Shown: positions 1 to 402 of the stretch, piece after piece | Position numbering within the stretch: position 1 is the stretch's first letter | How the letters are laid out: the number at the start of each line of letters is the position of its first letter | Program-made: the position numbers and the translations under genes | NCBI RefSeq assembly: GCF_003334335.1 | Contig: NZ_QOWQ01000198.1 | DNA length: 402 nucleotides | Strand: one strand, 5' to 3' | DNA from: Escherichia coli | GTDB taxonomy: Bacteria; Pseudomonadota; Gammaproteobacteria; Enterobacterales; Enterobacteriaceae | The notes under the pieces: model-generated | The model's input: only the letters and a program-made list of their open reading frames with translations | What the model was told of the DNA's origin: nothing | Databases searched by the model: none

Positions 1-402
1 AATGGCTTTAAGCTGTTCCGCGAAAAACTGGATACCCGTCGCGGCTCAAATTCACAACTCGAAACGGCAGTGAAAGACCTGGGGTCGGTGGTGTCTTTCA
101 AGGGGTATTACGGTGATCTGGCCATTGTGGTGGCGAAAACGTCTTATGTGGCAGAGGACGGTACCGAAAAACGTTATCTGCCGGAGGGCACGCTGGTCCT
201 GGGAAATACGGCTGCTGAGGGCATCCGTTGCTATGGTGCCATTCAGGATGCGCAGGCGTTGTCCGAAGGTGTGGTGGCCTCTTCCCGTTATCCGAAACAC
301 TGGATGACCGTGGGCGATCCGGCCCGTGAATTCACCATGACGCAGTCCGCTCCGCTGATGGTGCTGCCGGATCCGGATGAGTTTGTGGTGGTACAGGTGA
401 AA
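1..402 (+). CDS. Phage major capsid protein, lambda gpE-like (Phage_cap_E family); internal fragment, truncated at both window edges, covering roughly the last 134 residues before the C-terminus
   Basis: Seen in sequence: frame 1 on the + strand is open across all 402 bases (134 codons, no stop), which is why it is absent from the ORF track that lists only bounded ORFs. Codon usage is enterobacterial in style (ctg, ccg, gcg, cgt, gaa and aaa preferred). Established knowledge (from recollection, not a search): the translation aligns co-linearly with the C-terminal region of bacteriophage lambda major capsid protein E, sharing blocks such as EKLDTRRGSNS-LETAVKDLG, KG-YGD-AIVV, LVLGNT, YG-IQDA, RYPK-W-T-GDPAREFTM-QSAPLM and PDEF-VQ. 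Inference: lambda gpE ends a few residues after the PDEFVSVQLA-like motif, so the stop codon probably lies just beyond base 402. Confidence 0.9.

What the first reader, a model, noticed from the sequence alone, without database searches (positions are those of the whole stretch)
1..402. Diverged lambda gpE-like major capsid gene marks a lambdoid phage or prophage head module
The translation is clearly homologous to lambda major capsid protein E but is not identical: by eye against my recollection of gpE there are many substitutions between the conserved blocks (for example SVVSFKGYYGDLAIVVAKTSYVAEDGTEKRYLPEG here versus the KAVSYKGMYGDVAIVV... region of lambda). I cannot compute an identity figure. 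This places the window inside the late structural operon of a lambda-like phage, most likely an integrated prophage in an Enterobacteriaceae genome. By synteny with lambda (Nu1-A-W-B-C-Nu3-D-E-FI-FII), a head-decoration gene (D-like) would be expected immediately upstream and an FI-like head-completion gene immediately downstream. This is a well-described gene family, not a novel system.
Basis: partly seen in the sequence, partly recalled or inferred. Interest (0 to 1): 0.3.

Follow-up and report, generated by a model that had tools for sequence, protein, structure and literature searches.

The report
Phage 21-type lambdoid major capsid gene
The window is the last 134 codons of an ordinary, already-annotated major capsid protein gene of a lambda-like E. 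coli phage or prophage, much closer to phage 21 than to lambda itself; nothing about it is new.

Summary
The finding is confirmed and is ordinary. Frame 1 is open across all 402 bases. It encodes residues 209-342, the C-terminal 134 residues, of a 342-aa major capsid protein, and a TAA stop follows the window directly. It matches Pfam Phage_cap_E (PF03864, E = 3e-25) and PHROG 6020 "major head protein" (E = 8e-69). In the window it is 69% identical to lambda gpE residues 211-340. The full gene is 61% identical in protein and 63% in DNA. It is 95% identical in protein (91% in DNA) to the phage 21 major capsid protein, so "phage 21-type allele" describes it better than "diverged lambda E". Of the 35 nucleotide differences from phage 21, 29 are at third codon positions (dN/dS about 0.07), so frame 1 is under purifying selection. 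The sequence is 100% identical to Escherichia phage PhiR5_1 and to six complete E. coli chromosomes, all annotated as major capsid protein. Matches of at least 90% identity occur in 1565 of 5426 complete E. coli genomes. In those records the gene sits in the predicted order: Nu1-A-W-B-C/Nu3-D-E-FI-FII, then the tail genes. In strain EC2 the prophage also has an integrase and excisionase. No RNA family, repeat or credible overlapping gene was found. Novelty: already known. Interest is low.

The parts
1..402 (+). Codons 209-342 (the C-terminal 134 residues, up to the last sense codon) of a 342-aa lambda gpE-family (Phage_cap_E, HK97-fold) major capsid protein gene, phage 21-type allele
   Evidence: Open frame 1. 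PF03864 E = 3.1e-25, model 200-329/329. PHROG 6020 E = 8.4e-69. 69% aa to lambda gpE 211-340 and 95% aa to the phage 21 major capsid protein 209-342. 100% nt identity to the annotated CDS of PhiR5_1 (L001 11377-12405) and of E. coli EC2 (WP_000522645.1). TAA stop immediately after the window; 29 of 35 differences from phage 21 at codon position 3; dN/dS 0.07.

Best explanation
The window is the 3' 402 bases of the coding sequence of the major capsid protein gene of a lambdoid siphophage or prophage of E. coli. The gene is the lambda E equivalent and corresponds to gene 7 of phage 21. By homology to lambda gpE, whose capsid structure is solved, the protein adopts the HK97 fold. It assembles with the portal and a protease/scaffold into a procapsid shell, which expands during terminase-driven DNA packaging. 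Trimers of a D/SHP-type decoration protein, encoded directly upstream, then stabilise the shell at the three-fold positions by augmenting a beta-sheet formed by the E-loop and N-arm of neighbouring capsid subunits. Those decoration-binding elements lie in the N-terminal part of the protein, outside the window. Shown here: homology, reading frame, purifying selection and gene context in identical-sequence records. Inferred from lambda and phage 21 biology: fold, assembly pathway and decoration.
For: Frame 1 is open. Pfam Phage_cap_E E = 3.1e-25. PHROG major head protein E = 8.4e-69. The best solved-structure match is lambda major capsid protein 7vi9, E = 7.8e-55, residues 210-340. 69% aa to gpE and 95% aa to the phage 21 capsid protein. 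dN/dS 0.07 versus phage 21, with 29 of 35 differences at third codon positions. 100% identity to annotated major capsid CDSs in phage PhiR5_1 and six E. coli chromosomes. Context Nu1-A-W-B-C/Nu3-D-E-FI-FII-Z-U-V-G-T-H-M-L-K-I-J, with integrase and excisionase at the prophage end in EC2. The neighbouring W, B, C, D/shp and FII proteins are 91-99% identical to phage 21. The gpD/gpE staple mechanism is described in PMC5701804. SHP of phage 21 as a gpD homologue binding at three-fold sites is described in PMC7602432.
Against: Nothing contradicts it. There are three limits. The window holds only 39% of the gene, so the intactness of the 5' part and the flanking genes are known only from records with identical sequence, not from the window's own unknown contig. 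No structure was predicted and no expression or virion data exist here. The EC2 prophage carrying the identical gene has a frameshifted I-like tail assembly gene, so some carriers may not make infectious particles.
Confidence: 0.97

Rival explanations
1. The gene is a capsid gene remnant in a defective (cryptic) prophage. It is homologous to a capsid gene but no longer contributes to virion production in the genome the window came from.
For: The window's source is unknown. Matches occur at 2320 places in 1565 E. coli genomes, up to 5 per genome, and many E. coli prophages are defective. The EC2 prophage with the identical sequence has a frameshifted I-like tail assembly gene and a truncated DUF1327 gene.
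Against: The ORF is intact through to its natural stop. dN/dS is 0.07 versus phage 21. The identical sequence is in a deposited complete phage genome, PhiR5_1, whose record gives E. coli C as host. All examined carriers have the complete head-tail module.
Confidence: 0.12
2. The functional feature is something other than the frame-1 protein, such as an overlapping gene in another frame or on the minus strand (for example the 82-aa ORF at 300..52, or the 64-aa ORF at 113..307), or an embedded structured RNA.
For: the ORF listing gives an 82-aa minus-strand ORF and a 64-aa +2-frame ORF. Two sub-threshold Rfam matches appear: v-snoRNA-1 at 17.4 bits and mir-71 at 16.6 bits.
Against: Substitutions relative to phage 21 concentrate at frame-1 third positions (29 of 35), which is the signature of a single constrained frame. 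The Rfam hits are to eukaryotic and herpesvirus families, at E = 0.39 and 0.97 and far below gathering scores of 75 and 50. No repeats or inverted repeats were found. No annotation of any overlapping gene exists in any record examined.
Confidence: 0.01
3. The capsid gene belongs to a phage satellite or gene-transfer-agent-like element rather than to a lambdoid phage.
For: None specific. It is considered only because capsid homologues occur in such elements.
Against: Every identical-sequence record examined shows a full lambda-type late operon with terminase, portal, protease, decoration, tail and lysis genes. EC2 adds integrase, repressor-like and Q antiterminator genes.
Confidence: 0.01

Closest known systems
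Phage 21 major capsid protein (gene 7; UMO75423.1 in OL657228.1, also M81255.1)
   Same: Same length (342 aa) and the same C-terminus ...DPDEFVVVQVK. 95% aa and 91.3% nt identity in the window, and 96% aa over the full gene. Same position between the shp-type decoration gene and FI. The neighbouring W, B, C, D/shp and FII proteins are 91-99% identical.
   Different: There are seven conservative substitutions in the window (A237S, I258V, I263T, D270E, M272T, D281E, L310M, written as phage 21 residue, position, window residue). The surrounding module is mosaic: Nu1 is 64%, FI 57%, Z 67% and V 67% identical to phage 21.
Lambda gpE major capsid protein (NP_040587.1; PDB 7vi9, 7sj5)
   Same: Same Pfam family (PF03864). 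69% aa identity in the window, collinear with one single-residue gap. Same gene order D-E-FI-FII. Presumably the same HK97 fold and the same decoration-dependent stabilisation.
   Different: Only 61% aa and 63% nt identity over the full gene, too low for megablast to find lambda. The partner decoration protein is SHP-type, 50% identical to gpD. SHP is reported to be a trimer in solution, unlike gpD (PMC7602432).
Escherichia phage PhiR5_1 major capsid protein E (XSB41322.1) and E. coli WP_000522645.1
   Same: 100% nucleotide identity over all 402 bases. These are the same gene.
   Different: None within the window.
E. coli CFT073 prophage putative capsid protein, PDB 3bqw
   Same: A member of the same family with a solved crystal structure; E = 6.4e-34, chain residues 219-350.
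   Different: A more distant relative than lambda gpE. It was not examined further.

Membership tests
Phage_cap_E (PF03864), lambda gpE-like HK97-fold major capsid proteins | Significant match to the family profile HMM | tested here: met
   PF03864 i-Evalue 3.1e-25, score 89.4, query 3-133 on model 200-329/329. PHROG 6020 'major head protein' E = 8.4e-69.
Phage_cap_E (PF03864), lambda gpE-like HK97-fold major capsid proteins | Collinear sequence homology to the founding member, lambda gpE, whose capsid structure is solved | tested here: met
   BLASTP 69% identity, E = 1e-64, to gpE 211-340. Full gene 61%, E = 6e-155. phmmer to PDB 7vi9 gives E = 7.8e-55.
Phage_cap_E (PF03864), lambda gpE-like HK97-fold major capsid proteins | Intact coding frame under purifying selection | tested here: met
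   No stop in frame 1. TAA follows the last codon. dN/dS is 0.07 versus phage 21 and 0.27 versus lambda in the window.
Phage_cap_E (PF03864), lambda gpE-like HK97-fold major capsid proteins | Location in a head-morphogenesis module (terminase, portal, protease/scaffold, decoration, capsid, FI, FII) | tested here: met
   Met in the records holding the identical 402 bases: PhiR5_1 and the E. coli EC2 prophage. It cannot be tested on the window's own contig, which is not available.
Phage_cap_E (PF03864), lambda gpE-like HK97-fold major capsid proteins | HK97 fold of this particular protein | not tested
   No structure prediction was run. The fold is inferred from 61-69% identity to lambda gpE with solved structures.
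Phage_cap_E (PF03864), lambda gpE-like HK97-fold major capsid proteins | The protein is the principal shell component of assembled virions | not testable with these tools
   This requires virion proteomics or cryo-EM.
Phage 21-type head module (record taxonomy of phage 21: Jouyvirus) | Head genes near-identical to phage 21 across the module | tested here: inconclusive
   A 91%, W 99%, B 99%, C 94%, D/shp 93%, E 96% and FII 91% aa to phage 21. Nu1 is only 64% and FI 57%. The capsid gene itself is 21-type, but the module is mosaic. No genus assignment is claimed.

The most novel reading that the evidence does not exclude
The seven amino-acid differences from phage 21 gp7 in this C-terminal segment, or the allele as a whole, could be adaptive. 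They might change capsid stability or SHP compatibility, or allow escape from a host defence system that senses major capsid proteins. This would make the allele a natural variant worth testing.
Probability: 0.03. Interest if true: 0.3.

Novelty: already known. Interest (0 to 1): 0.05.

Why it matters
It matters little beyond annotation. The window flags a lambdoid (phage 21-type) head module, so the source contig very likely carries a prophage or is a phage genome. That helps with prophage delineation and strain typing. This allele group is common: matches of at least 90% identity occur in 1565 of 5426 complete E. coli genomes. It does not open any unresolved biological question.

Tried and rejected
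(1) Embedded RNA. An Rfam scan at a permissive E-value gave only two chance-level hits to eukaryotic or herpesvirus families, at 17.4 and 16.6 bits against gathering scores of 75 and 50. Rejected.

(2) Repeats or inverted repeats in the window: none.

(3) Alternative ORFs (82 aa on the minus strand, 64 aa in frame +2). Rejected because substitutions fall on frame-1 third positions and no record annotates them.

(4) Megablast against phages did not return lambda itself. This is explained by 63-68% nt identity, not by absence of homology.

(5) A literature search for the PhiR phage panel returned a bioRxiv paper (10.1101/2025.11.03.685801). Its only 'PhiR5' match was PhiR55.1, a different phage. 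I do not use it as evidence that PhiR5_1 forms plaques.

(6) Same-offset identity between PhiR5_1 and the EC2 prophage collapses after the tape-measure gene. The cause is a length difference in that gene, not divergence of the head module.

Full report
OBSERVATION. The 402-base window is open in frame 1 of the + strand. The other ORFs in the window are short and mechanical: 82 aa on the minus strand, and 64, 33 and 23 aa on the plus strand.

HOMOLOGY. The translation matches Pfam Phage_cap_E (PF03864) at i-Evalue 3.1e-25. It covers model positions 200-329 of 329, the C-terminal 40% of the family model, right to its end. Against PHROGs the best family is phrog_6020 'major head protein' (E = 8.4e-69), followed by two further major-head-protein families. 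Against the PDB sequences the top hits are the lambda major capsid protein (7vi9 and six related entries, E = 7.8e-55, chain residues 210-340; 7sj5). Next come an E. coli prophage capsid protein (3bqw, E = 6.4e-34) and the more distant YSD1 capsid protein.

The window is 69% identical to lambda gpE by BLASTP (90/131, one single-residue gap), aligning to gpE 211-340. The full 342-aa protein from records with the identical sequence is 61% identical to gpE. At the DNA level it is 63.4% over the gene and 67.7% over the window. That explains why megablast did not return lambda. The window is far closer to the phage 21 major capsid protein: 127/134 residues (95%) and 91.3% nt, with the same C-terminus DPDEFVVVQVK. 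The seven differences are conservative: A237S, I258V, I263T, D270E, M272T, D281E and L310M. 'Diverged from lambda' is therefore true, but the gene is the known phage 21-type allele.

IS FRAME 1 THE FUNCTIONAL FRAME? Of the 35 nucleotide differences from phage 21 in the window, 4, 2 and 29 fall at codon positions 1, 2 and 3. Nei-Gojobori dN/dS is 0.07 in the window and 0.06 over the full gene. Against lambda it is 0.27. This is the pattern of a single protein-coding frame under purifying selection. It argues against an overlapping gene. An Rfam scan found nothing credible, and no repeats were found.

IDENTICAL COPIES AND CONTEXT. The 402 bases are 100% identical to Escherichia phage PhiR5_1 (PV340545.1, CDS 'major capsid protein E'). 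They are also 100% identical to six complete E. coli chromosomes (CDS 'major capsid protein', WP_000522645.1 in strain EC2). Matches of at least 90% identity occur in 1565 of 5426 complete E. coli genomes, at up to five places per genome. In PhiR5_1 the window is bases 12001-12402 of locus L001, inside the CDS at 11377-12405. The next triplet is TAA. The window is therefore codons 209-342, ending on the last sense codon.

In EC2 the element also has a tyrosine integrase and excisionase next to chromosomal genes (DUF72/yecN/cmoA), a LexA-family repressor-like gene, replication genes and a Q-family antiterminator. It is an integrated lambdoid prophage of roughly 43 kb. The window's own source is unknown, so phage genome and prophage cannot be distinguished for it.

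MODULE TYPE. Compared gene by gene, the PhiR5_1 head proteins A, W, B, C, D/shp, E and FII are 91-99% identical to phage 21 and only 50-69% identical to lambda. Nu1 (64% to phage 21, 62% to lambda) and FI (57% and 28%) match neither well. Z and V are about 67% to both, although lambda and phage 21 are 97-99% identical to each other in Z and U. This is ordinary lambdoid mosaicism. The capsid gene itself lies in a 21-type block.

MECHANISM. Shown here: family membership, reading frame, selective constraint and head-module context. Inferred from established knowledge of lambda and phage 21: the protein has the HK97 fold and forms the icosahedral shell. The shell expands during packaging and is then stabilised by trimers of the decoration protein at three-fold positions. 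The decoration protein's N-terminus adds a strand to a sheet made by the E-loop of one capsid subunit and the N-arm of another (PMC5701804). Phage 21 SHP is a gpD homologue with 49% identity, trimeric at three-fold sites, and can bind lambda capsids (PMC7602432). The E-loop and N-arm lie in the N-terminal part of the protein, so the window does not include the decoration-binding elements. This placement is my inference from the HK97-fold order and was not tested here.

COMPARISON AND NOVELTY. The sequence is already deposited and correctly annotated in several public records, and its family is among the best studied in phage biology. Novelty: already known. The only non-excluded 'novel' reading is that the few substitutions relative to phage 21 have adaptive significance. 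The low dN/dS and the conservative nature of the changes make that unlikely (about 3%).

VERDICT. The refinements are that this is the phage 21-type allele and the exact C-terminal 134 codons, and that the window's own genomic setting cannot be established from 402 bases. Interest 0.05.

Noticed in passing
L001 12413-12433 (8 nt after the capsid gene stop; just outside the window's 3' end): There is a GC-rich terminator-like hairpin (9 pairs, 7 of them G-C) followed by a T run in the E-FI intergenic spacer. It is identical in phage 21. Lambda has a hairpin of different sequence (GGCCC-TTCG-GGGCC core) at the same place. A second terminator-like hairpin lies between the D-like gene and the capsid gene (L001 11327-11348). 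These may be mRNA-stabilising or attenuating elements within the Q-antiterminated late operon.
   Followed up: partly
L001 5213-14867 (PhiR5_1 head and proximal tail genes): The module is mosaic. A, W, B, C, D/shp, E and FII are 91-99% aa identical to phage 21. Nu1 is 64% and FI 57%, and Z and V are about 67% to both lambda and phage 21. The small terminase subunit and FI diverge together while the genes between them are conserved.
   Followed up: partly
L002 28038-28618 and 10367-10612 (E. coli EC2 prophage): The prophage carrying the identical capsid gene has a frameshifted I-like tail assembly gene and a truncated DUF1327 gene. This copy may therefore be defective for producing infectious particles.
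   Followed up: no
L001 15741-18313 versus L002 23741-26263: The tape measure gene is annotated as two CDSs in PhiR5_1 (15741-18074 and 18074-18313) but as one 2523-nt CDS in EC2. The length difference causes the apparent loss of same-offset identity downstream.
   Followed up: no
L002 4030-6421, 7466-9427 and 35487-40402; L005 14867-16559: The EC2 prophage carries or adjoins possible accessory cargo. Between Q and the lysis genes there is an opposite-strand block (a 404-aa hypothetical, a nucleoid-associated protein and a further hypothetical). There is also a SASA-family carbohydrate esterase. Just beyond the tail-fibre genes lie a YadA C-terminal-domain protein and an S6-family (SPATE-type) peptidase. 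The early region holds SPFH-domain, ORF6N and ParE-like toxin genes.
   Followed up: no
window 1-402 (population level): This allele group is very common. Matches of at least 90% identity occur in 1565 of 5426 complete E. coli genomes (2320 places, up to 5 per genome, 6 on plasmids), but only 19 records are at least 99% identical.
   Followed up: no
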